A stretch of DNA of 64,000 nt from an uncultured Desulfurellales bacterium (GCA_964544085.1 CAZIZT010000027.1:33676-97675); one strand, 5' to 3'. Counted from the stretch's first letter, positions 27,988 through 48,978 are shown. Program-made: numbers and translations. The notes: generated by a model not told the origin, from the sequence alone.

Positions 27988-27989
27988 TC

Positions 27990-34600: not shown

Positions 34601-34673
34601 TCTGATACTGGTGCCTGGTTTGTATCTCATAGTTGAGGATATCGCGAACCTGTTTGGGTTCACGACAAAATAA
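31599..34673 (+). CDS. RND efflux transporter permease
   Basis: 1024 aa RND architecture with the TM4 motif GIVVDDAIVVGENI. Overlaps the adaptor gene by 32 nt. Confidence 0.9.
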   Translation: MTRIIKFFIDNPVAANILMIFLLVGGFYYSYHIKQEVFPEYTIDEVVVQVSYPGATPKEIENGIILPIEEAIDGLEGIDKVISTAREGVGTVTIEAVNGADINQLYNDVKNAVDRITTFPADAEKPTIYIPTRKRAVITMILYGDVPYYQLMGLAQQYKDRLLNFKNITNVELSGNKPYQITISVSENALKKYSLTFSDIARKIRDFDTELGGGRIRTRGGDILIKTGTRKEYGSQLANIPIITTSGGGVVKLKDIAKIDDGFEDTDTYLKYNGKRAIGITVYRVGDQKPVEIADTVKAFIARIRDELPPGIGVDYVSDYSRIFKQRKELLLKNAKFGLVLVLILLALFLELRLAFWVMLGIPVSFLGSMLIFPMFGVTINMISMFAFIICLGIVVDDAIVVGENIYSYREKGLSFKEAALVGTREVFVPVVFSVLTNMVAFLPMYFVPGTAGKIFRIIPVIVCSVFTISLLESLFILPSHIAHQRENPILPIRAINRVQGKISKIIHRLINLLYTPVLKLALRFRYVVFVLAAVILYLAFVFVETGKIGIVYFPRIERSHATVRFQLPPESSVYDTLKIADMLVQRAKRIIKEHGGSKLAQGILTRIDGNSGDIRVYLTPPGVRPISTSQFTRLWRRASRGIPGLEKIRFSADFGGPGAGASLTIELSHRNTAVLTQACKQLANYLKTFKNVSDIDDGTSAGKYQFTLTLNSLGRALGLDPSYIATQLRGAYYGIEAKKFIRQGNEVKIKVTLPEQQRSLVYYFDHFMLTLPDGTRIPLKEVVNVEKGRSYVTITREDFRRVMYVTANVTPERDTRKIVENLMRDFLPKLKQHYPGLSYSFGGRQSRLKESMSVLTKGLLVSVLVIFTMLAIPFKSYIQPIIIMTAIPFGIIGAIIGHVIMGYDISIVSMFGIVALCGVVINDSLVLIDFANRIRRTLNKSHYEAVFEAGIKRFRPIILTTLTTFFGLMPMIFEPSTQARFLVPMAISLGFGILFSTFIILILVPGLYLIVEDIANLFGFTTK

Positions 34674-34678
34674 TCCCC

Positions 34679-35995
34679 TTAGTTTGTTCTTTTATCAATA
34701 AGACGTTTTACCTTGCCACTTACCGGGCTTCTTGCCAGAGTTCCAGTGGGTACAAACTCAACGGCGAATGTGCTGAAATACTTTTCCTTTACGGCGAGGT
34801 TTACCATATCCACATGCTGCTTCACTGATTCTAATATTTCTTCTTCAAGCGCTTTGCTTTTTGGAGGATTCGACGACTCAATGCGTAAAATGAAATTCAT
34901 CCTTCCATCATCCGCAAGGGAGAGCACAAGCTGGTATGTTGGTGTTACGCCTTCCTTTCCGAAGTATGGCGAAATAGCAGCTTCAACGTCTTCCATGGAG
35001 ACATAAGCACCTCCGATTTTGAAGTCATCGCCAGCTCTGCCTTTCAGCACAAGCAGGGGGTTTTCGTCACCACACGAACAGCGCTTCTGTTTTATGTAGC
35101 CAACATCGCCAAGACGGTATCTGATCATGGGCATGGAGAATCTGTGAAGATTTGTGACCACTATCTCGCCTTCCTCACCCGGCTCACAGGGTCTATTTTC
35201 CTCAAAATTGTAGATCTCCACCAGCTGAAAGTCTGTCGGTATGTGATACTCGTTGATTCCGCATGAGTTGCACTGGTAGCCTATGATACCGCAATCTGCG
35301 CTGGTGTAGCTGGCAGACCTGATACTGGCGTTAACAAAAACGCTTTTTATGTACTCCTCTGTATTTTGTGGCAGCGGCTCGGAGGTGAACTGAAGCAGTC
35401 TAAAACTCTCAAGTGTTATCTTACGTTTTTTGCACTCCTCAGTTAGTATGGTTATCACCGTTGGCAAGGTAAGCAGCACCGTCGGTTTGAACAGCTCAAA
35501 GTACTCAAGGACCCTATCCATGTGCTCCTTCGGTATGGCACCTATGGGCAAACAGACGGCGCCGGTCCTTTTTATGACCTCGTAGCCACCTATGAAGGAT
35601 GGCCACAGATAACCAGAAACGAACATATTGGCTACAATGTCCCTTTTGCCAACACCCAACAGCTTCATTGCTTTTGACTGGTACTCTGCAAATAGATCCC
35701 ATTCGTTGTAGGTCAAGACGCTGTATCTGGCTATGCCGCTTGAACCACCGGTTGAAACGACAATCATGCTTTCGATTGGCACCGTTAGCATCTTTTTCGA
35801 TTTCGGATACGAGTTTTCATAGACTTCACCGCGGGTTAAAAATGGGATTTTCAGCCAGTCCGAATAGCTTTCCACATCTTCTATATTCTCAAATTTCTCC
35901 TTGTAAAAGGCAGACTTCGTTTTAGCGTGCTGGAATACCTTTGCGGCGAGTTTTAATTGCTCTTCCAGTGAGATTCTATTGAATAGCGTCTCCAT
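34679..35995 (-). CDS. PaaK / coenzyme-F390-synthetase-like adenylate-forming ligase (paralogue of the C-terminal half of 40433..43135)
   Basis: 438 aa with a P-loop-like STGGSSGIARY. It shares the blocks GYQC, VVTNL...RYRLGD, CSCG and LKGRAGDD with the fused ligase domain. Confidence 0.7.
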   Translation of the reverse strand: METLFNRISLEEQLKLAAKVFQHAKTKSAFYKEKFENIEDVESYSDWLKIPFLTRGEVYENSYPKSKKMLTVPIESMIVVSTGGSSGIARYSVLTYNEWDLFAEYQSKAMKLLGVGKRDIVANMFVSGYLWPSFIGGYEVIKRTGAVCLPIGAIPKEHMDRVLEYFELFKPTVLLTLPTVITILTEECKKRKITLESFRLLQFTSEPLPQNTEEYIKSVFVNASIRSASYTSADCGIIGYQCNSCGINEYHIPTDFQLVEIYNFEENRPCEPGEEGEIVVTNLHRFSMPMIRYRLGDVGYIKQKRCSCGDENPLLVLKGRAGDDFKIGGAYVSMEDVEAAISPYFGKEGVTPTYQLVLSLADDGRMNFILRIESSNPPKSKALEEEILESVKQHVDMVNLAVKEKYFSTFAVEFVPTGTLARSPVSGKVKRLIDKRTN

Positions 35996-35998
35996 GCA

Positions 35999-37351
35999 TC
36001 ACTCCTTTATGTACTTATGCTTTATGGAGGCTTTTGTTTTATCTATCTTTTCGAGTTTTACATCTATCAGATCCATGCCGGTTGCCCGTGTTAGGTTGTC
36101 GTATTTTGCAACAAACTCCTTTGAGAACTGCTTTAGAAACTGCACAAGTCTCTGTTTGCATAGCTCTTTTTTGTCAGACACATCATCAAACGTGTAGATG
36201 GTAAATATGAACCTGTCGATTCCCTCAATGCTTTCCTTTTTCACGTCAAACAGACCGGTGTAGGAGATTTCCTTTTCCATAGAGTACAGGAAGTTGCCTA
36301 TATCCTGAATCATCAGGTTTGTGCCATAGAAAATAACGCTATTCTCTGGCCTACCGTGTATGTAGAACATATCATTCGGCAGTTTCTCATAGAGTTCCTT
36401 ATCAATCTTCCCTTCCAGCTGGGCTTTTTTCAAAAGACCACCTCTGTCTTTGGTGTTGTATCTCACAAGCGGTATTAACTGATCCTTTGTTACGACTATC
36501 TGGCCATCTATGACATCTATGTGTGCAGTACCAAGATCCCTCATAATCATAGGCGTGTCATCTGTGCCGAACAGTTCCTTTGAGAGCGCCTTGTTTTCAA
36601 ATTCAAGGTATTTGCGAAGGGCGATTGTCTCTCTTGTCTCCATGGCTATACCACCCGTATCGGCTGAACCGTATCCGGTCCATAGTACAGCTTCCTCGTT
36701 TTCGTTATGTCCAAAGCGTCTTGCCATATCTCTTCTGTAGTTTTCGCTGAAATACTCTCCGATTACGCCGAAATAGACCCTGCCATTAAGGAGTTCGGGC
36801 TCATCTTTGAGCAGCGAATAGATTATGCTCACGTTGGAGGCGTTCGTTATAAAAAGAATCTGATCGTACAGATGCTTGAACCTTTTAGCAACATTAGCAG
36901 CTTCCTCCAGATCAAGACCTGGAAAGGCTGAGGTCAATGGGTAGGGTGTCCTTGAAGCGAGGCTTCTCATGTAGCAGGCTACCTGCATGCCTCCGAACCA
37001 CATACCAAACGCTGTGGCAACAAGTATCAACGTTTTGCGCCTGTCGATAGCGTATAGCTCCTTGAAGTTCTTTTCAAAGAGTTTGAGTTCAGCATCCTCG
37101 TTTTCTGGACCTTTCAGCCAGTAGACACTTCCGGTTTTCGAAAAGCCGCTTGAAGCACCGATTAAAGCACACCTGTCTATATCGCCCCTTCTTACAACCT
37201 TCTCTATCGGGTATTGGAGCAGGTAGTTATCCTTTGTGGTGATCGGTATCTTTTCCCACTCTTTTACCTTTTCAGCGCCGTGTTTTTTCAGAAAATCTGC
37301 ATAAGCCTCGACGTTCTTTTTCACATCCTCAAATAGAGCCATCCTATCCAT
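35999..37351 (-). CDS. Divergent PaaK-like adenylate-forming enzyme family protein
   Basis: 450 aa. N-terminal layout resembles PaaK-type ligases (IPITTKDNYL, GASSGFSKTGS, later LVRYNTKDRG). AAGGAG RBS. The next ligase gene follows after 3 nt. Confidence 0.5.
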   Translation of the reverse strand: MDRMALFEDVKKNVEAYADFLKKHGAEKVKEWEKIPITTKDNYLLQYPIEKVVRRGDIDRCALIGASSGFSKTGSVYWLKGPENEDAELKLFEKNFKELYAIDRRKTLILVATAFGMWFGGMQVACYMRSLASRTPYPLTSAFPGLDLEEAANVAKRFKHLYDQILFITNASNVSIIYSLLKDEPELLNGRVYFGVIGEYFSENYRRDMARRFGHNENEEAVLWTGYGSADTGGIAMETRETIALRKYLEFENKALSKELFGTDDTPMIMRDLGTAHIDVIDGQIVVTKDQLIPLVRYNTKDRGGLLKKAQLEGKIDKELYEKLPNDMFYIHGRPENSVIFYGTNLMIQDIGNFLYSMEKEISYTGLFDVKKESIEGIDRFIFTIYTFDDVSDKKELCKQRLVQFLKQFSKEFVAKYDNLTRATGMDLIDVKLEKIDKTKASIKHKYIKE

Positions 37352-37519
37352 TTTTGTTCTCCTTACAGGTTTTTCGTTGTTTTTTATCTGTCAGTCCGCA
37401 GTGCAACCCACCAACTCCTTTGCCGGGCTTCATATCACCCATTCCGCTTTGTCTGTATCAACCTCTGATGCAGTGCGGCGGCTTTTGTCTGCTTCTTTCT
37501 TTGTTGAGCTTGGAGTTTT

Positions 37520-37552
37520 AAGACCGCTTGTGTCGGTCTTTTTTGATTTTTT
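37520..37552 (+). terminator. Intrinsic-terminator-like hairpin plus T-tract, oriented on the plus strand inside a minus-strand cluster
   Basis: AAGACCG-cttgtgt-CGGTCTT followed by TTTTGATTTTTT. On the minus strand the hairpin is followed by AAAACTCC, so it does not terminate transcription in that direction. Confidence 0.35.
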
Positions 37553-37694
37553 CTGGTTATCGAGCAAACGTTCAACGCTTTTAACCCCTTTGGCGTCATA
37601 ATCCAAACAAAGGGTACGTGAGTAACATCATTACAGCATTACAGGTTTATTGATAAACCTTTGTGTACATTATTGGAACGTGCGACTTATCGAT

Positions 37695-37723
37695 AATGTA
37701 TATTGCACAGGAACCTCTGTCAA
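37695..37723 (-). promoter_or_regulatory. Candidate sigma-70 promoter for the two distal PaaK-like genes
   Basis: Minus strand reads TTGACA, a 17-nt spacer, then TACATT. It would give a leader of about 335 nt before ATG 37351. Confidence 0.35.
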
Positions 37724-37787
37724 CACCAATTTGCGTATCATCGGCTAACAACAGATTATAGTCGCAATAGAACAGCCGTTGAGCCAC

Positions 37788-38978
37788 TTAATTGAGCTCC
37801 TTGATTTTTAGCATCTGAAATGACATGAAAATTATGATAATACCGCTTACAATGAGGATTGACCTTGTACCGATTAGAGAAACAAGCACGCCGGTCAAAG
37901 CATAACTCACCGGCAGAAGCGACAGGGCAATGGCTCCAAGAAAAGACATAATCCTGCCTAAAACTTGATCGGGCAAACGCTTCTGGTATACCGAGATTAT
38001 GCTTACGTTGGAGATGTTTACTCCTGCTCCAATTAGAAACAGGCTCAGCAGCGAGATATAGAAATTGCAGAGTGTGCCGAAGACAATAAACATCACACCC
38101 ATAAGAAGGGTGCTGAAAGATACAACAATCCTATCCGATGTGGTTATTCGTACACTTCCCATGACAATTGATGATACAAAGATGCCCGCTGCGAATGCAC
38201 CCATCATAAAACCTATGCCCTTTGCACCCATGTGGTATATGTTACCGGCAAACAGCGGGATTATGATTGTGACAGAACCGTAAAACAGGTTGATAATGGC
38301 GGCTTTTCCGATGAGCCTGGATACTATCGGATGCTGTTTGATTAGCTTAAGCCCATCCTTTATGGAGGCAATAAACGATGTCACCTGTGCCTGAACCGAT
38401 AGAGCAACCGTTTTGATGCCATACAGCAGTAGCGCGGATAAGAGAAATGATACACCGTTTGCAGCGAAAGCAAGCGGCAAACCGATAAGTGCTATAAGGC
38501 TGACCCCCACAAGTGGCCCTATGAGAATACTGAAGCTCGATCCTATTTGAACAAGCGCATTGGCTTTCGTGATCTCTTCCTGCTTAACAATTTGCGGCAC
38601 GATGGATAGAGAAGCAGGCATGAAGAAGCCCTGAGCCACCGACATAACGACGGTTATAGCGATTAGATTCCACAGATTAAGCGCATGGCTGAAAGCAAGA
38701 AAAGAGAGGGCGAAAACACAAACCGCCTGAACGATGTCGGTGGCAGCCATGATCCTTGCACGTCTCATTCTGTCTGCAATCTGACCGGCAAGCGGTGATA
38801 CCAGCACACCGGGAAGGGAGAATGCAACCATAACGGCGGCTATGATTATACCGGATTTGCCCCACTTGTAGGCTATCCACAGCAGTGCCAGTGAGTGTAC
38901 ACCGTCACCTATGCGCGATACAAAGCGCGACAGGAAAAATCTGAGGAAATACCTGTTTTCTTTGAAGAGTTTAAACAA
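37788..38978 (-). CDS. MFS transporter
   Basis: 396 aa with about 12 TM helices and the MFS loop motif GQIADRMRRARIM between TM2 and TM3. Overlaps the GNAT gene by 8 nt. Confidence 0.8.
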   Translation of the reverse strand: MFKLFKENRYFLRFFLSRFVSRIGDGVHSLALLWIAYKWGKSGIIIAAVMVAFSLPGVLVSPLAGQIADRMRRARIMAATDIVQAVCVFALSFLAFSHALNLWNLIAITVVMSVAQGFFMPASLSIVPQIVKQEEITKANALVQIGSSFSILIGPLVGVSLIALIGLPLAFAANGVSFLLSALLLYGIKTVALSVQAQVTSFIASIKDGLKLIKQHPIVSRLIGKAAIINLFYGSVTIIIPLFAGNIYHMGAKGIGFMMGAFAAGIFVSSIVMGSVRITTSDRIVVSFSTLLMGVMFIVFGTLCNFYISLLSLFLIGAGVNISNVSIISVYQKRLPDQVLGRIMSFLGAIALSLLPVSYALTGVLVSLIGTRSILIVSGIIIIFMSFQMLKIKELN

Positions 38979-40449
38979 CGTTACCCATAACCTCCTTCAT
39001 CATTCTGACCGAATAGTCAAAGAGTGTTTTGGCAAAATCGCTGTATATCTGTATCCTCGATAGGTCTATTTTTGAGTTTAGGTACTGAAATCTTATCGCA
39101 TCCTTGCCATTGAAGGCATAAGGAACCACGCCACAGAAAAAGAAGCCCATCTGTTCAAGCTCTGGCAGGAATTCATCTATCCTTGCATCGTACATCGAGA
39201 TGTTGAGAAGTATAACCTCTGCACCGGTGGATAGTCTCAACTGGTAAAGGGCATTCTTAACCTTTGATGATAGATCCCTTCCAACAGCCGGTACATTGAT
39301 AATACCGAACTCGCCGATAGAGCTGAACTTTGCTGTAACCTGTGTTGTGCTGGAAAAGCGTTCCTCCTCCGGTTGTACAACCCCAAGACCCAGTTTTGAA
39401 TATATCACCATAACCATCTCTCTATGCTTTTCCGGTATGTACAGGTGGCGTGGCTTGAACTCAAGCGGCTTGAAGTAGAACATACACGTTTCCCTTCCCC
39501 TGCCGGGTTTTATGTCCATTTTCCTGAAGCTAAACTCCTTGTATAGCAAACCAAACGAGACGCCGCATGGTGTTGATCCGAATTTCTCGTTGAGCTTTTG
39601 GGTGCGCGTGTGGCTTGTGACCGGCTGGGAATAGATACCCAGTATGTTTAAGCTCCTTGCAACCTCCTCAAGTTTCTGTCTCATTTTGACAACAATACCT
39701 CTGCCTCTGTATTCGGGATCCACGACGGCAAGTCCAAGTTCAACAACATCGCCGTGATCGTATCGCTCTATGGCGTAGTGTCCAACGACACGGCCGTAGG
39801 TTTTATCGACAGCTACTATGGAGACAAGTTTCCCCTGTCTGTTTAAGCTTTCCACAACCTCCGGGTAGTACATATCCTCGTTGGGATAGGTGTAACCGTA
39901 CGCCTTGTAGATCAAACGGGTTACCTGATACGCATCCTCGGGGTTTAGAATTTCAATTGAGATGTTGTCAGTGGGCGGTTCCTGCTTTTCCTTTGTTGGA
40001 GGTTTGAAGGAGGTTATAGCCTTTCTTGGTCTGCGGAAGCGTATTCTTAACTCCTTGCCCTGTTTGCCGTGATTGATCCACTCTAACTTGTAGCAGGTGT
40101 TTCTTATGATTTTCAGCTGCAGTTCACTTATATCATCACCAGTTTCATAGGGTTTCACACCGAAGGGCAATCCCTTGTCGAAGAAAGAGAGCACAAACTC
40201 CACCTCTCCAATGGAGGCAACGAGTTTTATCTCGGACTCCTCGTCTTCCTCAAAGGCACTCGTCAGGGTGTACACGAAAGCCTCTTCAGCTATCAGCTCA
40301 AACTTCAGCAGTTCGGCATCCTCAAAGCCAGCTATCTGTGCAGTGGTTGATGCAAAGCCCCTGACAACAGAAAGCAGGGCTATGTCGTTGGGCACTATCA
40401 GGCTGCAGCTTAAGGTGTTTTTGCTTGGCTTTTTATTTTGATCTTTCAT
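38971..40449 (-). CDS. Three-part protein: N-terminal anti-sigma-factor/HATPase-like domain, central GNAT acetyltransferase, C-terminal uncharacterised domain
   Basis: 492 aa. Residues about 15-135 resemble the RsbW/SpoIIAB fold (FELIAEEAF...VLSFFDKGLPF...ELRIRF). The GNAT core is GHYAIERY...LAVVDPEYRGRGIVVKM. The last 180 aa or so are unassigned. Confidence 0.6.
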   Translation of the reverse strand: MKDQNKKPSKNTLSCSLIVPNDIALLSVVRGFASTTAQIAGFEDAELLKFELIAEEAFVYTLTSAFEEDEESEIKLVASIGEVEFVLSFFDKGLPFGVKPYETGDDISELQLKIIRNTCYKLEWINHGKQGKELRIRFRRPRKAITSFKPPTKEKQEPPTDNISIEILNPEDAYQVTRLIYKAYGYTYPNEDMYYPEVVESLNRQGKLVSIVAVDKTYGRVVGHYAIERYDHGDVVELGLAVVDPEYRGRGIVVKMRQKLEEVARSLNILGIYSQPVTSHTRTQKLNEKFGSTPCGVSFGLLYKEFSFRKMDIKPGRGRETCMFYFKPLEFKPRHLYIPEKHREMVMVIYSKLGLGVVQPEEERFSSTTQVTAKFSSIGEFGIINVPAVGRDLSSKVKNALYQLRLSTGAEVILLNISMYDARIDEFLPELEQMGFFFCGVVPYAFNGKDAIRFQYLNSKIDLSRIQIYSDFAKTLFDYSVRMMKEVMGNVV

Positions 40450-43135
40450 CTATTACAAGCCTTATCTTGCCGGTTCTTGGGTTTCTCTCAATTGTATTGT
40501 ACGGCACAATCTTCACATCTATATCGTTTATAAGCCCCTCAGCGTACATCGTGCTCAATTCCTTTGATCTGCTTCTTATAGCCTTCTTAAGCCTTTCTTC
40601 GTCTTCAGCCGTTATGTTCGTGTATCCATCTTTTGCCTCGACTATAACAACAAGTGTATCCCTGGCGTTTTCAGTTTTTGCTTTCATCTGGAAATGGTTA
40701 CTCAAAAAGTCAAACTGTGCTATAGCACCAGCCACCACTTCAGGGTATATATTGCCACCACCTATAATCAGCACATCATCGCTTCTACCCAGCAGCTCAA
40801 ATACCCTTGTTTTTCTACCACATGCACACTCTGTCTCCACCCATCTTGCCATATCGCCAACTTCGTACCTTATCGTGGGCATCAGTTTTCTAAACAGGTT
40901 TGTTACAACCACCCTCCCGGGTTCACCTATTCTACAAGGCTCATCGTTGTCGTTTAAAATCTCCATGTAGTGCACATCTTCATGCACATGGTAGAATCCT
41001 GATGGCAGGTGCCTGCACTGATAGCCTATGGTCCCCGTGTCGTTGGTCGTGTAATCTGTGGAAGAGAACCTTTCAACGCCGAGTATGCTCTTTATGTATT
41101 CCCTTGCTTCGTTGAAGAGATGCTCACCGCCTGTTACTATTTTCTTTATCTTGAGGTTGAGTCTGTTTTTCTCAACGTACTCAGCAATGGATATGGCAAC
41201 CGACGGTATCGTGATGAAACCCGTTGCACCGAACATCATGAGGTTGTTAACCACAGCCTCTATTGAGATATTGCCGCTTATGGGCAAAACCCTGCATCCG
41301 ACAACCTCGAGTGCCATATTGAACGAGACAAAAGACGCCCACATGTTACCGGCAAACAGTAGATTAGCCACAACGTCGTTTTCGTCGAATATGGAGAGCT
41401 TGAGACCTTTACCTAATTTGTATGCATTGAACCACTGCTCCTCGAACGTCCTGTAAACAACCTTGGGTTTGCCTGTGGTACCACCGCTTGCAAAGACAAA
41501 GCCCCTGGGGTTGTCATCTGTTAGAAGCCCACTGCCAAAGGGAGGAATGTATTGCTTGTAATCATCGCCGGTCAAGAGCGGAACCTTCCTGAACTCCTCA
41601 AAGCTGTCGATTCTATCGATATCCCTGTATCTTTCCTTCAACAGCGGTGAATGCTCCTTAGCGTATTTGAAAACCTCGTTTATGCGTATAAGAGTCAACC
41701 TGTCTCTTTCTTCCTGCGGCAGGAAATCAAAGTAGTCCTCTTCAGGGTTATACGTGTGTTTGGGGATGGTAATATCCCACTGGGCTTCCAGTTTATCGCG
41801 TGAAAGCGAAATCCACTTCACAAGCTCGCTAAGGCCCCTTGTACCATCATGCGGCGTGCCGTGTTTCCTTGTGGCCATTCTGCCCGCCTCGACAAACCTA
41901 TCGGCACCCACATCACCGAGCTTATCCGCAAGATCCGCTGCAGTCTCATCATCAACAACCAGAGCGACAGACTGCATATACTCGCCCATCGGTTCCACGG
42001 CTTTGATCACGTCAAATACACTGTCGATTGCTTTTACAAAGAGCGTTCTGTTCTGGCACGATATCTGAAATTGCTTATCCTTCTGGTAAACGACCGTGCT
42101 TAAGCCCTTTTTGCCTATCTTAAAATCACTTACTCCCAGTGCCTTTTCAACCTTGGCAAGTTCTCTTACCTTATTTATCTCGACAGCCTCGTCATCGTAA
42201 ACCTCACCCTGCGGCAGTGTATCAAACCACTCATCGAAGCTCTCAGCAACCTTCTCCATGAGCTTAAGTGCGTTGTCTTCACCTTCCACATAGACCACGT
42301 GGGGCGATGAACAGGCTGACTGCTCCCACATAAGGGCATCCTTAGCAATCATACGCGCCACATTGTCTATGCCCCTTTTCTTTAATTCACCTTCCTGCAC
42401 CACTATAAAGCTGTACTTTGGTCCGTATTCAACCAGTTTGGTGTGAAGCCCCAGGTCCTTTCTGTAGCTTAAAACCGTGTCTCTTCCACCGTAGACAACG
42501 ATGCAGTCGGCAAGCTGCTTTAGGGGTTTCTCAACAACCTCATTGCCCCCCTTCCAGTGGATTAACGCCATGGCTTTGTGCAAAACGCCCGTTTCATCGT
42601 TTTCCTTTAAGCTTTTTGCAAAAAGCACCGGAAACAGCGGATCAACGGTGGACATCTTCATAATGTTCACGTTTTTGGTGATTATACCCTGAATAAGACT
42701 ATCCACACCGCCTACAAACACGTTACCTGCTGAAACATGTACAACCACACCGCGCGGTTTTGCCATGATGTAGCCCTTAAAGGTCGGATGGTAAACCCAC
42801 TCGTCGAGGTACTTGAAATCACCAAGATCGGTGTTCAGTCTTATCATAAGGTTTCTTTTTTTGAGAAGGTCGCACATACTCTTTATGCCTTCCTCTACCA
42901 TCTCCCTTGAGAAACCTATCATGGAAGGGAGCTTTTCAAGTGCTTCCTTTCTGTATGGGTAGTTCTCATCCATCCAAAGGTGGGAGAGTTTATCGAGGGT
43001 CTCTACGATCTGTTGCATCTTCAGGTTCGCTACTTGCTGTTTTAGGGACTTTGCCTCATCCATAATTTCGTATATCTTTTCCCTGCCTAAGGGAGAGTCG
43101 AGCTCTTCCAGCCTGCCGAACAGATAAAATTCCAT
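40433..43135 (-). CDS. Fusion protein: LuxC-type acyl-CoA (thioester) reductase N-terminal half plus PaaK/F390-synthetase-like adenylating C-terminal half
   Basis: Start taken at ATG 43135 (AGGAGG RBS), which gives 900 aa. The LuxC-like half has the catalytic-Cys context EQSACSSPH. The ligase half has the ASGGTTGKPK P-loop, GYQC, RYEVGD and CACG. Confidence 0.75.
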   Translation of the reverse strand: MEFYLFGRLEELDSPLGREKIYEIMDEAKSLKQQVANLKMQQIVETLDKLSHLWMDENYPYRKEALEKLPSMIGFSREMVEEGIKSMCDLLKKRNLMIRLNTDLGDFKYLDEWVYHPTFKGYIMAKPRGVVVHVSAGNVFVGGVDSLIQGIITKNVNIMKMSTVDPLFPVLFAKSLKENDETGVLHKAMALIHWKGGNEVVEKPLKQLADCIVVYGGRDTVLSYRKDLGLHTKLVEYGPKYSFIVVQEGELKKRGIDNVARMIAKDALMWEQSACSSPHVVYVEGEDNALKLMEKVAESFDEWFDTLPQGEVYDDEAVEINKVRELAKVEKALGVSDFKIGKKGLSTVVYQKDKQFQISCQNRTLFVKAIDSVFDVIKAVEPMGEYMQSVALVVDDETAADLADKLGDVGADRFVEAGRMATRKHGTPHDGTRGLSELVKWISLSRDKLEAQWDITIPKHTYNPEEDYFDFLPQEERDRLTLIRINEVFKYAKEHSPLLKERYRDIDRIDSFEEFRKVPLLTGDDYKQYIPPFGSGLLTDDNPRGFVFASGGTTGKPKVVYRTFEEQWFNAYKLGKGLKLSIFDENDVVANLLFAGNMWASFVSFNMALEVVGCRVLPISGNISIEAVVNNLMMFGATGFITIPSVAISIAEYVEKNRLNLKIKKIVTGGEHLFNEAREYIKSILGVERFSSTDYTTNDTGTIGYQCRHLPSGFYHVHEDVHYMEILNDNDEPCRIGEPGRVVVTNLFRKLMPTIRYEVGDMARWVETECACGRKTRVFELLGRSDDVLIIGGGNIYPEVVAGAIAQFDFLSNHFQMKAKTENARDTLVVIVEAKDGYTNITAEDEERLKKAIRSRSKELSTMYAEGLINDIDVKIVPYNTIERNPRTGKIRLVIDERSK

Positions 43136-43148
43136 TTTTTCCTCCTGC

Positions 43149-44270
43149 TTATGCATTTTTGAGCAGCTCTGCCGCCGTGATGGCGCATCCTTTGTGTTTC
43201 TGTTTGCCGGCCCTTCCTAAAAGCTCGATGTAAGGCGTTTTTATGCCGCAGGTGCAATTGTTTTTCAGCATGCCGTAATCTGTGGAGAGTATCGAAATAG
43301 TGGGCTGGGCAAGGTTGTATGGCGACAGAAGATGCAAAAGGCCCTTTTTAGCAAAACCCAGAAACTCCAGATGACCCGGTTTTCTCACAAATACGGATGC
43401 ATAAATGGGCACATGGAAGTGCCCTTCGCGGCAGGTGAGATACGGTACGCCATGCTCAACGAATCCATAGATGTCTCTGAAGTTGCTCATCGGTATACCC
43501 AATGTCTCATGTATCTCTTTTTTGAAGAGCTCATACGGTATGCTTTTTTCCTGCTTATCCTTCCAGCCGCCACCTGTTATTACCATGCTTTCTTCGTGGT
43601 TGAAATCGTAGCTTAAGTGTTTCTCTTTTAGGGTAAGCGCTATCTCGTGCATAAATGCCGGAAAACCAACCAGCCTCAGTGGTGTGTTTTTATCCTTTGC
43701 ATACTCTTCAAGCTTCTTCAAAACACCGTCCTCGTCGAATTGTGGAACGCCTTTTTCGTTAGCGTGTATGGCGAAGAACTTATCTTTAGCAGGGGCAAAT
43801 GTGGTGTACATATTGTGCGTGTAGGCTGCTCCTTTGTTGCCTGCAATCTCTGGATCGTAACTAAAAACAATATAGTTTACCGGTTTCTGTGTCGGTACGC
43901 CCACAGCCTTGACTATGCGCTCCCTCATCCTATTCTGCCTTTCTTTGGATGCGGTATCACACAGGACATGGCTCTTCTGACCGCTTGTTCCGCTCGATGT
44001 GAACTCATATGCTATCTCCTCTTCTGGCAGTGTTCTGAGCGTGTACCACTTCAGAACGTTGACCATGATGTGCGGTATGTGCCTGATATCGTCGGGTGTT
44101 TTCAGATCGTCCGGAGAAAAATCCTCGAAATCGCATACCTTTCTGTAGACCTCGTTGCGCGTGTAGTGAAATTCGAACACCTCCTTCATTGCTTTAAAAT
44201 AGATTTCTCTGCATTCGTCGCTGGTGCAATACGGATCTTCTATTGTAAACAGCCTATCGAGATACTCCAT
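43149..44270 (-). CDS. LuxE-family acyl-protein synthetase / acyl-adenylate-forming enzyme
   Basis: 373 aa with P-loop TSSGTSGQKSHV and overall LuxE layout. AAGGAGG RBS. First gene of the cluster. Confidence 0.75.
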   Translation of the reverse strand: MEYLDRLFTIEDPYCTSDECREIYFKAMKEVFEFHYTRNEVYRKVCDFEDFSPDDLKTPDDIRHIPHIMVNVLKWYTLRTLPEEEIAYEFTSSGTSGQKSHVLCDTASKERQNRMRERIVKAVGVPTQKPVNYIVFSYDPEIAGNKGAAYTHNMYTTFAPAKDKFFAIHANEKGVPQFDEDGVLKKLEEYAKDKNTPLRLVGFPAFMHEIALTLKEKHLSYDFNHEESMVITGGGWKDKQEKSIPYELFKKEIHETLGIPMSNFRDIYGFVEHGVPYLTCREGHFHVPIYASVFVRKPGHLEFLGFAKKGLLHLLSPYNLAQPTISILSTDYGMLKNNCTCGIKTPYIELLGRAGKQKHKGCAITAAELLKNA

Positions 44271-44576: not shown

Positions 44577-44612
44577 TCTATGAGTAATAAACATCTACAC
44601 AGGAGGTGGCTT

Positions 44613-45896
44613 ATGGCGAAAGGTTCTTCGTGGCTGTCGTGGTATTTCAAGCCGAGTCTGCTTTTGAGAATCCTCATTGGACTCGTTTTGGGTGCTATCT
44701 TTGGTCTAATCTTTGGTGAAAAGATCATGTGGGTTAAGCCCTTCGGCGAAGTCTTCGTGAGATTGCTTAAGATGATCGTCATGCCTGTTGTGATCACATC
44801 ACTTGTGGTCGGTGCTGCAAGCATCGAACCCTCAAGGTTGGGAAGAGTAGGTGTGAAGATTGTCATACTCTATCTAATCACATCTGCTATCGCCGTGGCT
44901 CTGGGTCTGATTTTTGGTAACCTGTTTCATGTAGGAAGTGGTGTGAACCTTGCTGAAATTGGTCATGGAGTTGTCAAGAAGGCTTCTTCTACGAGCTTTG
45001 TGGATACGCTTTTAAACATCATACCGAAAAATCCATTTGCTGCTATAGTTAAGGGGCAGGTTTTGCCTGTAATCTTTTTCTCGATTATCTTCGGTATTGG
45101 CATAGCCTTTTTGAAAGATAGCAAGGATGAGAGGCTAAAGAGCGCAGGTGAGGTTGTATTTAAGTTCTTCGACGGCTCAGCTGAGATTATCTACAAGATG
45201 GTTGGCTGGATTCTGGAGTATGCTCCTATCGGTGTTTTTGCGCTGCTTGCCGTTGTCTTCGCAAAAGAGGGTTCAAAGGCTATTGGACCACTGGCACTCG
45301 TCGTATTCGTTGTGTATCTCGCTCTGATTGCTCATGTGGTAATCACATACGGAACACTCCTGAAGATAAACGGCATATCGCCGCTTAAATTCTTCAACAA
45401 AATCAAAGAGGCATCCATTACAGCATTTGTTACAAGAAGCTCAAGCGGTACTCTGCCTGTGACGATGAAGGTTGCAGAGGAGAATCTCGGCATTGCCAAG
45501 GGTGTTTACTCCTTCACACTTCCGCTTGGTGCGACAATCAATATGGACGGAACAGCTATTTATCAGGGTATATGTGCCCTGTTTGTTGCTACCGCGGTAG
45601 GCGTGCACCTGAGTATAGCCCAGCAGATAACGGTCATCATAACAGCTGTTCTTGCGTCAATCGGTACTGCAGGTGTTCCGGGTGCTGGTGCGATAATGCT
45701 ACTTATGGTGCTGAGCTCTGTCGGGCTTGATCTGTCGGCAAATAGCCCTGTAGCGCTCGCCTATGCGATGATACTGGGTGTGGATGCGCTTCTTGATATG
45801 GGTAGGACATCAGTGAATGTGACAGGAGATTTGACGTGCACCACAATTGTTGCTAAATCAGAAAAAGAGGTTAACTGGGAAGTGCTTCAGAAATGA
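44613..45896 (+). CDS. Dicarboxylate/amino acid:cation symporter (DAACS, GltP-like)
   Basis: Start at ATG 44613 (AGGAGG RBS). Motifs [17 protein letters not shown] and [11 protein letters not shown] are characteristic of the glutamate/aspartate symporter family. Confidence 0.85.
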
Positions 45897-46588
45897 AGAG
45901 GCTCGGCATTATAGGGGGAATGGGTCCACAGGCAACTGTGGACCTGTTTCAAAAAATTATCGATCTTACCCCGGCCAACAGGGACCAGGATCATATACCC
46001 ATCGTTATTGACAACTACCCACAGGTACCGGATAGGACGGCATACCTGTGTGGTGATGGTGAAAATCCCCTTCCATATTTGCTTGAATCGGTAAAAAGGC
46101 TTGAAAGGGCAGGCGTTGATTGCCTGTGCATGGCATGCAACACGGCTCACTACTTTATAGATGAGCTGAGGGCGGCTACGAGCCTTGAATTCATAAGCAT
46201 GGTTGAGTCTGTGCTTAACGATATAAAGAGAAGCCCGCGTCGTTATTCAAAGGTGGGTATTCTTGCAACAGATGGAACAATCAAGGGCAGGGTTTACCAT
46301 AGACCGTTTTCTAAAGCTGGTATTGAGATAGTGGACCTTGATGCTAACCTGCAAAAGATTGTGATGGATGCGATCTATCTTCTGAAGGCGGGCAGAACGC
46401 AGAAAGCCGTTGAAAGGTTCAAAGAGGCTTTAGCCGCCATTGAAAAAGAAGGGTATGAGTGTCTGATTGCCGCATGCACGGAGATACCCGTTCTGTTTTC
46501 ACATGTTAAGGAATATAGCGGCGCAGATGTTTATGATGCCACCTATTCCCTTGCAAAAAGGGTTGTGGAGTACTGTTTTGTTGAGTAA
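45893..46588 (+). CDS. Aspartate/glutamate/hydantoin racemase-family protein (aspartate-racemase-like)
   Basis: 231 aa. N-terminal [11 protein letters not shown] and two catalytic-Cys contexts ([15 protein letters not shown]). ATGA overlap with the symporter gene. Confidence 0.8.
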
Positions 46589-46594
46589 AGGAAC

Positions 46595-47698
46595 ATGAGC
46601 CACACGCTTGTCTGTTACCTGTGCAATAGATCCTATAAGCCGGATAGTTTGAAGTGGAGATGCGATTGCGGTGGGTATCTGGATGTGCGCATGGATGAGC
46701 GCAGGATCGATTTTGAGAAACTTGATGGCAATAGGGGCATGTGGCGATACGAAGCAATACTGCCCGTTGAGGATCCACACAGCATTGTGTCGTTTAATGA
46801 GGGTTTTACACCGCTTGTTGATACCGGTTTTTCGAATGGTAAGGTGTATTTCAAACTCGACTATTTGTTTCCCTCCGGTTCATACAAGGACAGAGGGGCA
46901 AGTGTGCTGTTAAGTATGGTTAAACAGCTCGGTGTCACTGAGATTATTGAAGACTCCTCCGGTAATGCTGGCTCCTCGATAGCCCTGTATGCTGCGAGGG
47001 CTAACGTGAAAGCCACAATCTACGTGCCGGCTGATACATCCGCATCAAAGATCACGCAGATCAGAGCCTCTGGTGCGCGTATAATGCTGATTGAGGGCTC
47101 AAGAAGGGATGTGTACGAAAGGGCTATCAACGATGCAACAGAGAAAAGCATCTATTATGCAAGCCATATATGGAATCCATACTTCTTTCAGGGTACAAAG
47201 ACGTTCGCTCTTGAGCTCTTTGAACAGATGGGCTATACATCACCGGATGCGATTGTTATCCCTGTGGGCAATGGAACGCTGTTTATTGGTGCCTATCTGG
47301 GGTTTGAGTATCTCAAAAGACTCGGATACATCAAAAGGATGCCGTCATTAATAGGGGTTCAGGCAAAAAACTGTGCGCCACTTTTTGCCAGTAAACATTC
47401 CTTGAGATTTAGCTCTTCTGAAACCATAGCCGAGGGTATAGCCATTGAGAATCCACCAAGGATAAAGCAGATACTGGATATTGTCGAGGAAACGGGTGGT
47501 GATATTGTAGTTGTAGGGGAGGGAGAAATCGTCGATGCGATGAAGAAGCTCCATAGGAGTGGCTTCTATGTTGAGCCCACATCGGCAGCTGCCGTAGCCG
47601 CCCTTGACAGGATAACAATTGCTCAAAATAGCAGTGTTGTTGTCCCACTAACAGGAAGTGGACTGAAAACACAGGATAAAATAGAAAAATTTCTTTAA
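46595..47698 (+). CDS. Threonine-synthase-like fold-type-II PLP enzyme with an N-terminal Cys4 zinc-ribbon-like segment
   Basis: 367 aa with CYLC...CDCGG at the N-terminus, PLP-lysine context SGSYKDRG and the glycine loop PVGNGT. Confidence 0.65.
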   Translation: MSHTLVCYLCNRSYKPDSLKWRCDCGGYLDVRMDERRIDFEKLDGNRGMWRYEAILPVEDPHSIVSFNEGFTPLVDTGFSNGKVYFKLDYLFPSGSYKDRGASVLLSMVKQLGVTEIIEDSSGNAGSSIALYAARANVKATIYVPADTSASKITQIRASGARIMLIEGSRRDVYERAINDATEKSIYYASHIWNPYFFQGTKTFALELFEQMGYTSPDAIVIPVGNGTLFIGAYLGFEYLKRLGYIKRMPSLIGVQAKNCAPLFASKHSLRFSSSETIAEGIAIENPPRIKQILDIVEETGGDIVVVGEGEIVDAMKKLHRSGFYVEPTSAAAVAALDRITIAQNSSVVVPLTGSGLKTQDKIEKFL

Positions 47699-47771: not shown

Positions 47772-47888
47772 GAGTGAGTTAATTCTCCGAGCTTTTAAAC
47801 CTAAGGCTTCCTTTGATGGGAGCTATGGTTTTTAAGCCGATAGGGTGAGTGTGGAAACGCATTCGCCTCCCGTGCTTGGAAAGGAGAA
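47772..47888 (+). promoter_or_regulatory. Molybdenum/tungsten-cofactor (Moco, moaA-motif) riboswitch candidate
   Basis: Contains CTCCGAGC near the 5' end and a stem AGCTTT/AAGGCT. The 3' segment TTCGCCTCCCGTGCTTGGAAAGGAG closely resembles the E. coli moaA leader (...CUUCGCCUCCCGUAUCUGGAAAGG...). The RBS is embedded in the 3' arm, and a Mo/W transporter lies directly downstream. Confidence 0.72.
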
Positions 47889-47891
47889 GTT

Positions 47892-48962
47892 GTGATTTCT
47901 CTTTCTATTCGTAAGCGGCTTGGCGCTTTTCAGCTTGATGCCTCCTTTGAGCTTTCCACCAATCGCTGTGTGATATTCGGACCTTCCGGTAGTGGAAAAT
48001 CATCTCTACTAAAAATGATAGCTGGGTTTTTTGATCCGGATGAGGGCAGGATCATCATAAATGGCAAATGTTATTTCGATAGCAAACGGTCTATCTCCCT
48101 GGCTATTCAGAAACGTAATGTGGGTTATCTTCCTCAAGAGTATACGCTATTTCCGCATATGAAGGTCAGGCAGAATATTGAGTATGGTTTAAAGAAGCGA
48201 AAGATACGGGAATTTCTGCCGGTTGAGGATCTGGTGAAGAGGTTTGGTATAGACGATTGTATGGACAGATACCCTTCAGAACTCTCAGGCGGACAGCGTC
48301 AGAGAGCTGCACTGGTAAGGGCTCTTGTTGTTAAACCCGATCTACTTCTGCTGGATGAGCCCTTCAGTGCCCTTGATAAGCCGATAAGGGAGGAGTTGAG
48401 AACGCTGGTTGCCGACGTATCCGAAACATTCGATATACCGGTACTGTTTGTTACTCATGATCCGGATGAGGCGTTTGTATTTGCAGATCAGATGGTGATA
48501 ATAAAAGACGGCATCGTGCTTGAATGCGATTATAAAGAGAGGGTCTTCAATGCGCCCCGTTTTGTTGAAACTGCACTCCTCTTCAATTTTTTCAATATCT
48601 GGCATGTCAAAGAGGCGACAAATGGATCTGTTAAGCTAAGGAATGGCTATGTGCTTAAAACCAATGCTGCTTCCTGCGATTATGTCTCAGTGAAACCGGA
48701 GAATGTAATGATACTTAGACCTGACGCAGATTTCAGGCAGAAGGAGAACGTGATAAGTGTTGTTGTGGAGAGACTAACGTGGCATAACCGATATGTCTCT
48801 GTTTCGACCAGAACAGATGATGGTATGAAAATCAGAATCAATGTCCCTGAACATGTGATAGGCAAGATGCGTATAGAAGAGGGTGTAAGGCTGAGGGTGT
48901 CCCTGGATAGAGGCTCCTTAATCCCGCTTAAAGTGCACAGGAATGTGCATGTTAATTCGTGA
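47892..48962 (+). CDS. modC: Molybdate/tungstate ABC transporter ATP-binding protein with a C-terminal TOBE-like domain
   Basis: 356 aa with a GTG start after AAGGAG. Has Walker A GPSGSGKSS, signature LSGGQRQR, Walker B LLLLDEP and a C-terminal extension of about 120 aa. Confidence 0.75.
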   Translation: MISLSIRKRLGAFQLDASFELSTNRCVIFGPSGSGKSSLLKMIAGFFDPDEGRIIINGKCYFDSKRSISLAIQKRNVGYLPQEYTLFPHMKVRQNIEYGLKKRKIREFLPVEDLVKRFGIDDCMDRYPSELSGGQRQRAALVRALVVKPDLLLLDEPFSALDKPIREELRTLVADVSETFDIPVLFVTHDPDEAFVFADQMVIIKDGIVLECDYKERVFNAPRFVETALLFNFFNIWHVKEATNGSVKLRNGYVLKTNAASCDYVSVKPENVMILRPDADFRQKENVISVVVERLTWHNRYVSVSTRTDDGMKIRINVPEHVIGKMRIEEGVRLRVSLDRGSLIPLKVHRNVHVNS

Positions 48963-48978
48963 TGTTCGGAGGTGCTCA

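What the first reader, a model, noticed from the sequence alone, without database searches (positions are those of the whole stretch)
40433..43135. LuxC reductase fused to a PaaK-type adenylating domain: a carboxylic-acid-reductase-like enzyme without a carrier domain
Seen: one ORF encodes an N-terminal half of about 450 aa with LuxC features (NAD(P)-dependent aldehyde-dehydrogenase-like fold, Cys context EQSACSSPH). The C-terminal half of about 450 aa is a PaaK/F390-synthetase-like ligase. A short linker joins them, with no Ser-containing PP-binding motif between them. The reductase-first, ligase-second order is the reverse of classical carboxylic acid reductases (A-T-R). Established: LuxC receives its acyl group from LuxE by direct acyl transfer onto the LuxC cysteine, and CAR enzymes need a phosphopantetheinyl arm. 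Inference: the fusion may hard-wire a LuxE-like hand-off from acyl-AMP to the reductase cysteine and then to aldehyde. That would allow carrier-independent carboxylate reduction. The separate LuxE gene upstream would then serve a second substrate or act as a loader.
Basis: partly seen in the sequence, partly recalled or inferred. Interest (0 to 1): 0.65.

Follow-up and report, generated by a model that had tools for sequence, protein, structure and literature searches.

The report
LeupB-like reductase–ligase in leupeptin-type cluster
The LuxC-reductase/PaaK-ligase fusion is real, but it is the same kind of two-domain enzyme as LeupB of the known leupeptin pathway, and it sits in a six-gene cluster that probably builds an unknown small peptide aldehyde without a carrier protein.

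Summary
One intact ORF (40433-43135, minus strand, 900 aa; 907 aa from an upstream ATG) encodes a LuxC reductase domain, a 30-residue serine-free linker and a complete PaaK-type ligase domain. The catalytic residues are invariant in 50 homologues.

The architecture is not new. LeupB of the characterised leupeptin operon (leupABCD plus an MFS transporter) of Klebsiella michiganensis is the same LuxC-ligase fusion and aligns collinearly (E 1e-69). All five leup components have a counterpart in this six-gene operon (34679-44270). Four are sequence homologues. The MFS transporter matches in kind only.

The operon has two extras: a third, divergent PaaK-fold ligase, and an HATPase_c_2-like domain on the LeupD-like acyltransferase.

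The adjacent LuxE keeps the Lys, Arg and C-terminal Cys that load LuxC in the lux system. It accompanies the fusion in 55 of 64 loci. In some genomes it is fused in front of it as LuxE-LuxC-ligase.

So the LuxC cysteine is most likely loaded by LuxE. The fused ligase most likely makes an amide bond of a peptide aldehyde.

This six-gene variant is widespread in anaerobes and its product is unknown.

The parts
43149..44270 (-). LuxE / LeupA-like acyl-protein synthetase (373 aa). It is the first gene of the operon. K237 is at codon 43560-43562 and the C-terminal C362 at codon 43185-43187.
   Evidence: Pfam LuxE E 1.5e-51. It is 34% identical to K. michiganensis LeupA over the full length, E 4e-74. 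It aligns to P. phosphoreum LuxE 7xc6_E with the GGGWK and KGC motifs conserved. These residues are invariant in 7 partners.
40433..43135 (-). LuxC-PaaK fusion gene (LeupB-like), 900 aa. An alternative upstream ATG at 43156 would give 907 aa.
   Evidence: It aligns collinearly with LeupB, E 1e-69.
41813..43033 (-). LuxC (acyl-thioester reductase, ALDH-fold) domain, residues 42-448. The catalytic Cys282 is at codon 42311-42313.
   Evidence: Pfam PF05893 E 7e-86. 7xc6_A E 1e-43. C282 is invariant in 50 homologues.
41711..41800 (-). Inter-domain linker, residues 453-482. It has no serine, and its start lies in the lowest-confidence part of the model.
40442..41710 (-). PaaK-type adenylate-forming ligase domain, residues 483-905. 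The P-loop SGGTTGKPK is at 41462-41488 and the catalytic Lys897 at codon 40466-40468.
   Evidence: NCBIfam PaaK models E 1e-45. 4r1l E 5e-41. Foldseek 4rvo/2y27, TM normalised by target 0.85. The P-loop and K897 are invariant. Its best match among the Klebsiella proteins is the ligase half of LeupB (31%, E 8e-50).
38971..40449 (-). LeupD-like GNAT acyltransferase (492 aa) with an extra N-terminal HATPase_c_2-like domain (about residues 20-137).
   Evidence: Pfam Acetyltransf_1 E 5e-9. HATPase_c_2 E 2e-5, which is below the gathering score. Residues 163-372 align to LeupD 2-203, E 1e-14. The protein is conserved in the cassette.
37788..38978 (-). MFS_3 (EntS-like) transporter, the presumed exporter.
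   Evidence: Pfam MFS_1 / MFS_3 E 1e-33 or better. It is conserved in the cassette.
37352..37787 (.). A 436-bp non-coding gap inside the operon. It may hold an internal promoter.
   Evidence: The gap is 10 bp in Hippea alviniae.
35999..37351 (-). Divergent PaaK-fold ligase ('lig450', 450 aa). It has no counterpart in leupABCD.
   Evidence: No Pfam or NCBIfam hit. hhalign to the fused ligase domain gives prob 96.9%, E 1.5e-10. AF2 pLDDT 88, pTM 0.85; Foldseek top hits are PaaK ligases at E 3e-19. The invariant residues include G65, S67-F70 and G74 (motif GASSGFSKxGS) and K444.
34679..35995 (-). Stand-alone PaaK-like ligase ('lig438', 438 aa), the LeupC counterpart.
   Evidence: NCBIfam PaaK-type models E 1e-30. 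26% identical to LeupC, E 1e-30. 28% identical to the fused ligase, E 1e-58.

Best explanation
The ORF encodes a LeupB-type bifunctional enzyme. It belongs to a six-gene operon that is ligase-based and NRPS-independent, a distant relative of the leupeptin cluster leupABCD plus MFS. The operon most likely makes a secreted N-acylated short peptide aldehyde.

Proposed mechanism:
1. Free-standing PaaK-fold ligases (lig438, lig450) and the ligase domain fused to LuxC each adenylate a carboxylate and couple it to the amine of the next amino acid. This gives up to three amide bonds. (Inferred.)
2. The LeupD-like GNAT caps the N-terminus with an acyl group. (Inferred.)
3. LuxE adenylates the C-terminal carboxylate, self-acylates on its C-terminal Cys362 and passes the acyl group to Cys282 of the LuxC domain. 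NAD(P)H then reduces the thioester to the aldehyde. (By homology with the lux fatty-acid reductase.)
4. The MFS protein exports the product.

The conserved fusion of ligase to reductase probably couples the last ligation with the reduction of the same residue. It is not an acyl-AMP loader of the cysteine.

What is shown: the domain identities, the conserved catalytic residues, homology to four of the five leup components, and the gene-neighbourhood conservation. The MFS transporter matches only in kind. What is inferred: the substrates, the order of steps and the role of each ligase.
For: [quoted passage not shown] It is linked to leupeptin production.

I fetched that locus (L006/L007).
- LeupB is 802 aa with LuxC 42-413 plus AMP-binding. 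It aligns collinearly with the window protein through both domains, E 1e-69.
- LeupA matches LuxE at 34% identity, E 4e-74.
- The ligase half of LeupB and the fused ligase here are reciprocal best matches (164 bits).
- LeupC matches lig438, E 1e-30.
- LeupD matches the GNAT protein, E 1e-14.

Leupeptin has two peptide bonds, one N-acetyl group and one aldehyde. The leup operon has two PaaK-type ligase modules, one GNAT and one LuxE/LuxC pair.

The LuxE relay residues are invariant across both families (mechanism in PMC9157457 and PMC12041015). LuxE-LuxC-ligase triple fusions exist.

The cassette is modular across 64 loci: 2-gene, 3-gene and 6-gene forms all contain LuxE plus the fusion.

PaaK-fold enzymes that couple adenylates directly to nucleophiles without CoA are among the structural neighbours: NatL2 and AjiA1 for the fusion, and NatL2, McbA and GH3 JAR1 for lig450. 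That AjiA1 is CoA-independent is from my own knowledge.
Against: - No product, substrate or activity is known for this six-gene family.
- Identity to the Leup proteins is low (23-34%).
- The MFS proteins are not detectably similar at E 1e-3.
- I could not read Li et al. 2020, so the experimentally assigned role of each LeupB domain is not verified here.
- Three loci (L036, L042, L060) have 1.7-6.7 kb upstream of the fusion without a LuxE gene.
- The inter-domain geometry of the model is uncertain (pTM 0.62) and no coordinates were available. A direct ligase-to-Cys path cannot be excluded structurally.
Confidence: 0.6

Rival explanations
1. The fused PaaK domain adenylates the substrate and transfers the acyl group directly from acyl-AMP to the LuxC cysteine within one polypeptide. 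This would be a carrier-free carboxylic acid reductase. LuxE would serve another substrate.
For: The fusion is strictly conserved, with both active sites intact. At least 91 fusion proteins of 750 aa or more are among the 150 best 50%-identity cluster representatives matched by a query across the junction. There is no carrier domain. A few loci lack a nearby LuxE (L036, L042, L060).
Against: LuxE with the invariant acyl-carrying Cys is present in 55 of 64 loci, and in some genomes it is fused in front of LuxC. The fused ligase has no cysteine tail. In leupeptin biosynthesis two peptide bonds must be made, and apart from LuxE only two ligase modules exist; one of them is this domain. No other ANL enzyme is known to me that acylates a cysteine of a fused ALDH-fold domain.
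Confidence: 0.1
2. The fused PaaK domain is a true CoA ligase. It makes an acyl-CoA that is then either reduced by the LuxC domain (LuxC reduces acyl-CoA in vitro; my own knowledge of the lux literature) or used by the GNAT protein as its acyl donor.
For: The best sequence and structure matches are phenylacetate-CoA ligases. Databases name the protein 'acyl-CoA reductase'. GNATs use acyl-CoA donors. Three-gene modules of LuxE + fusion + GNAT exist.
Against: This would leave LuxE redundant for loading LuxC, yet its relay cysteine is invariant. Two-gene and single-gene (triple fusion) forms have no GNAT. The leupeptin acyl cap is acetyl, which needs no dedicated ligase. The count of ligases matches the count of amide bonds only if this domain makes an amide.
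Confidence: 0.15
3. The operon is a lux-like fatty-acid reductase system. It would make fatty aldehydes or alcohols for lipids, waxes or signalling, and would be unrelated to peptides.
For: The LuxC and LuxE domains are closest to the bioluminescence fatty acid reductase in the PDB.
Against: There are no luciferase, thioesterase (LuxD) or lipid genes in the cassette. Three extra amide-type ligases, a LeupD-like GNAT and an exporter are conserved. There is gene-for-gene correspondence with the leupeptin cluster, by sequence for four of five components.
Confidence: 0.05

Closest known systems
LeupB and the leupeptin operon leupABCD + MFS of Klebsiella michiganensis/oxytoca, Photorhabdus and Xenorhabdus (Li et al. 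2020, Angew Chem 59:17872; an antiSMASH 'Leupeptin' region type exists)
   Same: The N-terminal LuxC / C-terminal PaaK-type ligase didomain is the same, with the catalytic Cys, P-loop and C-terminal Lys aligned. An adjacent LuxE-like gene, a stand-alone PaaK-like ligase, a GNAT and an MFS transporter sit in one operon. There is no carrier protein and no NRPS.
   Different: Identity is only 23-34%. The window protein is about 100 aa longer: it keeps the N-terminal helical subdomain of PaaK, which is reduced to a short linker in LeupB. It has one additional divergent ligase (lig450). The GNAT carries an N-terminal HATPase_c_2-like domain. The MFS is of another subfamily (MFS_3 versus Sugar_tr-like). 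The hosts are anaerobes (Hippea, Desulfobacterota, Bacteroidales, Kapabacteria) and Rhodopseudomonas rather than enteric or entomopathogenic Gammaproteobacteria. The product is unknown.
LuxC-LuxE fatty acid reductase of bacterial bioluminescence (PDB 7xc6)
   Same: It has the same two protein families and the same key residues: LuxC Cys, LuxE Lys238, Arg355 and Cys364 (PMC9157457). Carboxylate reduction is carrier-free, through a Cys-to-Cys thioester relay.
   Different: In lux, no ligase is fused to LuxC, there is no GNAT and there are no extra ligases. The substrate is myristate supplied by LuxD. Here the substrate is presumably an (acyl)peptide or amino-acid carboxylate.
Carboxylic acid reductases (CAR, A-T-R) and NRPS terminal reductase domains
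   Same: The net chemistry is the same: ATP- and NAD(P)H-dependent reduction of a carboxylate to an aldehyde.
   Different: CARs use a phosphopantetheinyl carrier domain and an SDR-fold reductase. Here the reductase is ALDH-fold, there is no carrier domain, and the acyl carrier is a cysteine on LuxE.
CoA-independent PaaK-fold and ANL coupling enzymes (NatL2, AjiA1, ClxA, McbA, GH3 JAR1)
   Same: They share the adenylate-forming fold. NatL2, AjiA1 and ClxA are among the structural neighbours of the fused ligase. NatL2, McbA and GH3 JAR1 are among those of lig450. They are precedents for direct amide or ester formation from an acyl-adenylate.
   Different: Sequence identity is low (11-24% over the Foldseek alignments). 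The substrates are different. None of them is fused to a reductase.

Membership tests
Leupeptin-type (leup) ligase-based peptide aldehyde cluster | LuxC-ligase didomain protein (LeupB) | tested here: met
   BLASTP against K. michiganensis LeupB gives E 1e-69, collinear over 840 columns through both domains. Pfam shows the same architecture in both proteins.
Leupeptin-type (leup) ligase-based peptide aldehyde cluster | Adjacent LuxE-like protein (LeupA) | tested here: met
   34% identity, E 4e-74, full length. The gene lies immediately upstream, with 13 nt between its stop and the fusion start.
Leupeptin-type (leup) ligase-based peptide aldehyde cluster | Stand-alone PaaK-like ligase (LeupC) | tested here: met
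   lig438 against LeupC: 26% identity, E 1e-30. The best window match of LeupC is the fused ligase, so one-to-one orthology is not resolved.
Leupeptin-type (leup) ligase-based peptide aldehyde cluster | GNAT acyltransferase (LeupD) | tested here: met
   Residues 163-372 against LeupD 2-203: 23% identity, E 1e-14. The extra N-terminal domain is absent from LeupD.
Leupeptin-type (leup) ligase-based peptide aldehyde cluster | MFS transporter in the operon | tested here: inconclusive
   An MFS gene is present. It has no BLAST similarity to the Klebsiella MFS at E 1e-3 and belongs to a different Pfam subfamily.
Leupeptin-type (leup) ligase-based peptide aldehyde cluster | Product is leupeptin (acetyl-Leu-Leu-argininal) or a close analogue | not testable with these tools
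The extra ligase and the low identity argue for a different product.
LuxC/LuxE fatty acid reductase (lux) | Catalytic Cys of LuxC; Lys, Arg and C-terminal Cys of LuxE | tested here: met
   Residue roles are from PMC9157457.
LuxC/LuxE fatty acid reductase (lux) | Context with luciferase luxAB and acyl-transferase luxD | tested here: not met
   Pfam scans of the six operon genes and 14 neighbouring ORFs (26043-52475) gave no luciferase-like or LuxD-like hit. The related loci show none either.
Carboxylic acid reductase (CAR, A-T-R) | Phosphopantetheine carrier (T) domain between the A and R domains | tested here: not met
   No PP-binding hit. The linker is 30 residues long, has no Ser, and its start is modelled at low confidence. 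The GVDSL at residues 150-154 lies inside the LuxC fold.
Carboxylic acid reductase (CAR, A-T-R) | SDR-fold terminal reductase | tested here: not met
   The reductase is ALDH-fold LuxC.
Phenylacetate-CoA ligase PaaK (equivalog) | Score above the NCBIfam equivalog cut-off | tested here: not met
   155 bits against a cut-off of 700 (NF041878), and 125 against 646 (TIGR02155). The fold and superfamily match, but not the specific function.

The most novel reading that the evidence does not exclude
The six-gene cassette defines an unrecognised, widely distributed branch of carrier-free, ligase-built peptide aldehydes. Its hosts are anaerobes (Hippea, Desulfobacterota, Acidobacteria, Kapabacteria), Rhodopseudomonas and gut Bacteroidales. 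It would make a longer N-acyl peptide aldehyde, with three ligase modules instead of two. The conserved reductase-ligase fusion would exist to channel a labile intermediate between the last ligation and the reduction. The HATPase_c_2-like domain on the acyltransferase would tie production to STAS/SpoIIE partner-switching signalling.
Probability: 0.3. Interest if true: 0.6.

Novelty: new variant of a known kind. Interest (0 to 1): 0.4.

Why it matters
Peptide aldehydes such as leupeptin are potent protease inhibitors. They are also precursors of pyrazinone signals that act on bacteria and on host receptors. The only characterised ligase-based route, leup, is described as narrowly distributed.

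This window shows a distant relative with an extra ligase. That variant is common in environmental anaerobes and in gut Bacteroidales. It is a source of unknown protease-inhibitor-like metabolites.

The natural series of LuxE + LuxC-ligase, LuxE-LuxC-ligase triple fusions, and 2-, 3- and 6-gene forms could serve two purposes. It could be used to work out how carrier-free carboxylate reduction is coupled to amide ligation. It could also be used to engineer short peptide aldehydes without NRPS machinery.

Tried and rejected
- **Cryptic carrier domain.** No PP-binding hit was found and the linker has no serine. The one GxDSL-like match (GVDSL, residues 150-154) lies in a helix of the LuxC NAD-binding fold and aligns to GVTSI in P. 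phosphoreum LuxC. Rejected.
- **Frameshift or assembly artefact.** Rejected. More than 120 full-length homologues exist, and an independent 99%-identical contig is continuous across the junction.
- **The 'unknown' 450-aa protein as something other than a ligase.** Rejected, on the basis of hhalign and the structure model with Foldseek.
- **Measuring the distance between Cys282 and the ligase active site in the AF2 model.** Not possible. No coordinates are exposed, and pTM 0.62 means the domain arrangement is not reliable.
- **Reading Li et al. 2020.** The paper is not held. Secondary papers give the gene list but not the per-domain biochemistry.
- **Literature searches for this domain combination outside leup.** They found only the LuxC-LuxE cryo-EM paper.
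- **Rfam scan of the window.** No RNA element was found in or next to the operon.
- **The promoter and terminator scan of the operon.** It is not above shuffled expectation.

Full report
**Observation.**
The minus strand carries one uninterrupted ORF at 40433-43156 (907 codons). The ATG at 43135 is preceded by AGGAGG at 6 nt and lies 13 nt after the stop of the upstream gene. Homologues also begin at the equivalent residue. I use 907-numbering below.

The domain evidence is as follows.
- Pfam places LuxC at residues 42-448 (E 7e-86). It places AMP-binding plus AMP-binding_C_2 at 557-905.
- NCBIfam PaaK models cover 479-905 (E 1.5e-45) but score far below their equivalog cut-offs.
- The nearest solved structures by sequence are P. 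phosphoreum LuxC 7xc6 (E 1e-43) and the Bacteroides PaaK-like ligase 4r1l (E 5e-41).
- An AlphaFold2 model built on 50 homologues is confident per domain (mean pLDDT 86.5) but not for the domain arrangement (pTM 0.62).
- Foldseek returns PaaK ligases and LuxC as top matches.

EQSACSSPH is present, and its Cys282 aligns with the catalytic cysteine of LuxC.

The linker (453-482, RDKLEAQWDITIPKHTYNPEEDYFDFLPQE) is 30 residues long and has no serine. Its start lies in the lowest-confidence part of the model. No PP-binding domain is detected in any gene of the operon.

In 50 homologues the following are invariant: C282, the P-loop residues S557, G558, G559, T560, G562 and K565 (motif SGGTTGxPK), and the C-terminal catalytic K897.

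**Surroundings.**
The gene is the second of six tightly packed minus-strand genes (34679-44270; gaps of 13, -17, -8, 436 and 3 nt).
- LuxE (43149-44270)
- the fusion
- a 492-aa protein with a GNAT domain and an N-terminal HATPase_c_2-like domain (38971-40449)
- an MFS_3 transporter (37788-38978)
- a 450-aa protein with no Pfam or NCBIfam hit (35999-37351)
- a 438-aa PaaK-like ligase (34679-35995)

The 450-aa protein is a divergent PaaK-fold ligase.
- Profile-profile comparison aligns its family to the fused ligase domain (probability 96.9%, E 1.5e-10).
- Its model (pLDDT 88, pTM 0.85) matches PaaK ligases at E 3e-19. Amide synthetases (McbA, GH3 JAR1) follow further down the list.
- It keeps a degenerate P-loop (GASSGFSKxGS) and a C-terminal invariant Lys.

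The operon therefore encodes four adenylate-forming modules, one reductase, one acyltransferase and one exporter. It encodes no carrier protein.

**Relatives.**
The fusion is common. The first protein search listed 120 hits, nearly all full-length at about 900 aa, with 42-79% identity (apart from a 99%-identical partial copy). They come from Hippea alviniae (71%), Desulfofustis, Desulfuromonas, Marichromatium, Rhodopseudomonas, Kapabacteria, Bacteroidales, Armatimonadota and many metagenomes. They are mostly annotated 'acyl-CoA reductase'.

I also searched 1.84 billion cluster representatives with a 281-residue query that spans the junction. That gave 167 hits at E<=1e-10. Of the best 150, 91 are 750 aa or longer, with the junction at the same position.

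The same six genes, in the same or a permuted order, occur in Hippea, Desulfofustis, Rhodopseudomonas and a Bacteroidales MAG.

**What it is.**
A preprint on Klebsiella oxytoca lists the leupeptin operon (leup). [quoted passage not shown] Other papers tie leupABCD to leupeptin and to leupeptin-derived pyrazinones.

Using a published leupB primer I retrieved the K. michiganensis locus (L006; L007).
- LeupB is 802 aa and has the same architecture: LuxC 42-413 followed by an AMP-binding ligase.
- It aligns collinearly with the window protein through both domains (25% identity over 840 columns, E 1e-69). The aligned features include the Cys motif (DQQACSSPQ), the P-loop and the C-terminal GK motif.
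- LeupA matches the window LuxE (34%, E 4e-74).
- The ligase half of LeupB and the fused ligase here are each other's best matches (31%, E 8e-50).
- LeupC matches lig438 (26%, E 1e-30).
- LeupD matches residues 163-372 of the GNAT protein (E 1e-14).

So four of the five leup components have a sequence homologue here. The fifth, the MFS transporter, has a counterpart in kind only. The window adds one ligase (lig450) and one domain (HATPase_c_2-like).

antiSMASH even has a 'Leupeptin' region type.

**Mechanism.**
In the lux system LuxE adenylates the acid and forms a thioester on Cys364 near its C-terminus. That tail then delivers the acyl group to the LuxC cysteine, which is reduced by NADPH. 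LuxE Lys238 and Arg355 are required (PMC9157457; PMC12041015).

The window LuxE aligns with P. phosphoreum LuxE with GGGWK and the KGC cysteine in place. The P-loop, K237, R353 and C362 are invariant in LuxE partners from seven loci, among them K. michiganensis LeupA.

I surveyed 64 non-redundant loci with HMMs built from the cassette proteins.
- LuxE is present in 55.
- Six of the other nine loci end within 0.75 kb upstream of the fusion or are fragments.
- Three (L036, L042, L060) have 1.7-6.7 kb upstream without a LuxE.
- The cassette comes in several forms: 2-gene (LuxE + fusion), 3-gene (+ LeupD-like) and 6-gene.

In L044, L065 and P0470, LuxE is fused in front of LuxC-ligase in one 1276-1314-aa protein. 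In L065, the one I translated, the LuxE cysteine (RGCAIA) is retained ahead of a roughly 30-residue linker.

The fused PaaK domain, by contrast, is a complete ANL enzyme. It has its own C-terminal subdomain and lysine, and it has no cysteine tail.

Leupeptin needs two peptide bonds, one acetylation and one reduction. The leup operon offers two PaaK-type ligase modules, one GNAT and one LuxE/LuxC pair.

The most economical reading is therefore as follows.
- LuxE loads LuxC.
- The fused ligase makes an amide bond, probably the one next to the residue that is reduced. This would also explain why ligase and reductase stay fused.
- By the same count, the window cassette could make three amide bonds.

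These assignments are inference. No substrate or product is known for this family, and I could not read the primary leupeptin paper.

**Rivals.**
It makes the invariant LuxE cysteine and the LuxE fusions hard to explain, and I give it about 0.1.
- A true CoA-ligase role is possible (about 0.15). The acyl-CoA would then be reduced by LuxC or used by the GNAT. That role again leaves the LuxE relay unexplained, and it does not fit the forms without a GNAT.
- A lux-like fatty aldehyde pathway is unlikely (about 0.05).

**Novelty and value.**
The architecture and the kind of pathway are known. The window's protein belongs to a distant branch (23-34% identity to the Leup proteins). That branch has a different gene complement and different hosts, and its product is unknown.

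A 2024 paper calls the leup operon narrowly distributed. This related six-gene family, in contrast, is widespread in anaerobes and in gut Bacteroidales.

I rate it a new variant of a known kind. It is of moderate interest, mainly for natural-product discovery and for understanding carrier-free reduction coupled to ligation.

Noticed in passing
window 47773-47902 (+), with genes 47892-50483: A Moco/tungsten riboswitch (RF01055, 87 bits) lies directly upstream of a ModC/WtpC-like ABC ATPase, a solute-binding protein and a permease. This is presumably a riboswitch-controlled molybdate or tungstate uptake operon.
   Followed up: partly
window 44580-47698 (+): This operon runs divergently from the leup-like operon. 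It holds an SDF (DAACS) transporter, a CuyB cysteate racemase that scores above its equivalog cut-off (249 vs 190 bits), and a ThrC-like PLP enzyme below every threonine-synthase cut-off. It may be a cysteate/sulfonate metabolism operon.
   Followed up: no
window 37352-37787: A 436-bp non-coding gap lies inside the six-gene operon between the MFS gene and lig450. The equivalent gap is 10 bp in Hippea alviniae. It contains a promoter-like TTGACA-17-TACATT on the minus strand (37723-37695) and a hairpin with a T-run on the plus strand (37520-37540). There is no Rfam hit.
   Followed up: partly
L065 7069-11013; L044 4286-8263; protein P0470: These are natural triple fusions, LuxE-LuxC-PaaK ligase, in one polypeptide of 1276-1314 aa. 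In L065, the one translated, the LuxE acyl-carrying cysteine is retained. In L065 the gene stands alone among unrelated genes.
   Followed up: partly
window 38971-40449 (N-terminal about 150 aa); L004 2736-4511; L009 6190-8866; L008 15957-16808: The LeupD-like acyltransferase of the six-gene family carries an N-terminal HATPase_c_2 (anti-sigma-kinase-like) domain that is absent from LeupD. In Rhodopseudomonas, a Bacteroidales MAG and a Kapabacteria genome, the cassette lies next to STAS / HATPase_c_2 / SpoIIE partner-switching genes. This suggests a regulatory link.
   Followed up: partly
window 27346-34673 (+): ExbB/TonB genes and an RND efflux system (OEP, HlyD-like, AcrB) end 5 bp from the 3' end of the operon, in convergent orientation. 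It is unknown whether the RND pump helps export the product across the outer membrane.
   Followed up: no
L008 8826-12676; L047, L048, L050: These are minimal two-gene forms: LuxE + LuxC-ligase only, with no other cassette gene within 8-10 kb. They are 32-45% identical to the window protein. They may make a simpler N-acyl amino aldehyde.
   Followed up: partly
L042 5018-12160: One LuxC-ligase gene without a nearby LuxE is flanked by an M49-like peptidase, an amidohydrolase and an M24 peptidase. The context is related to peptide metabolism but differs from the cassette.
   Followed up: no
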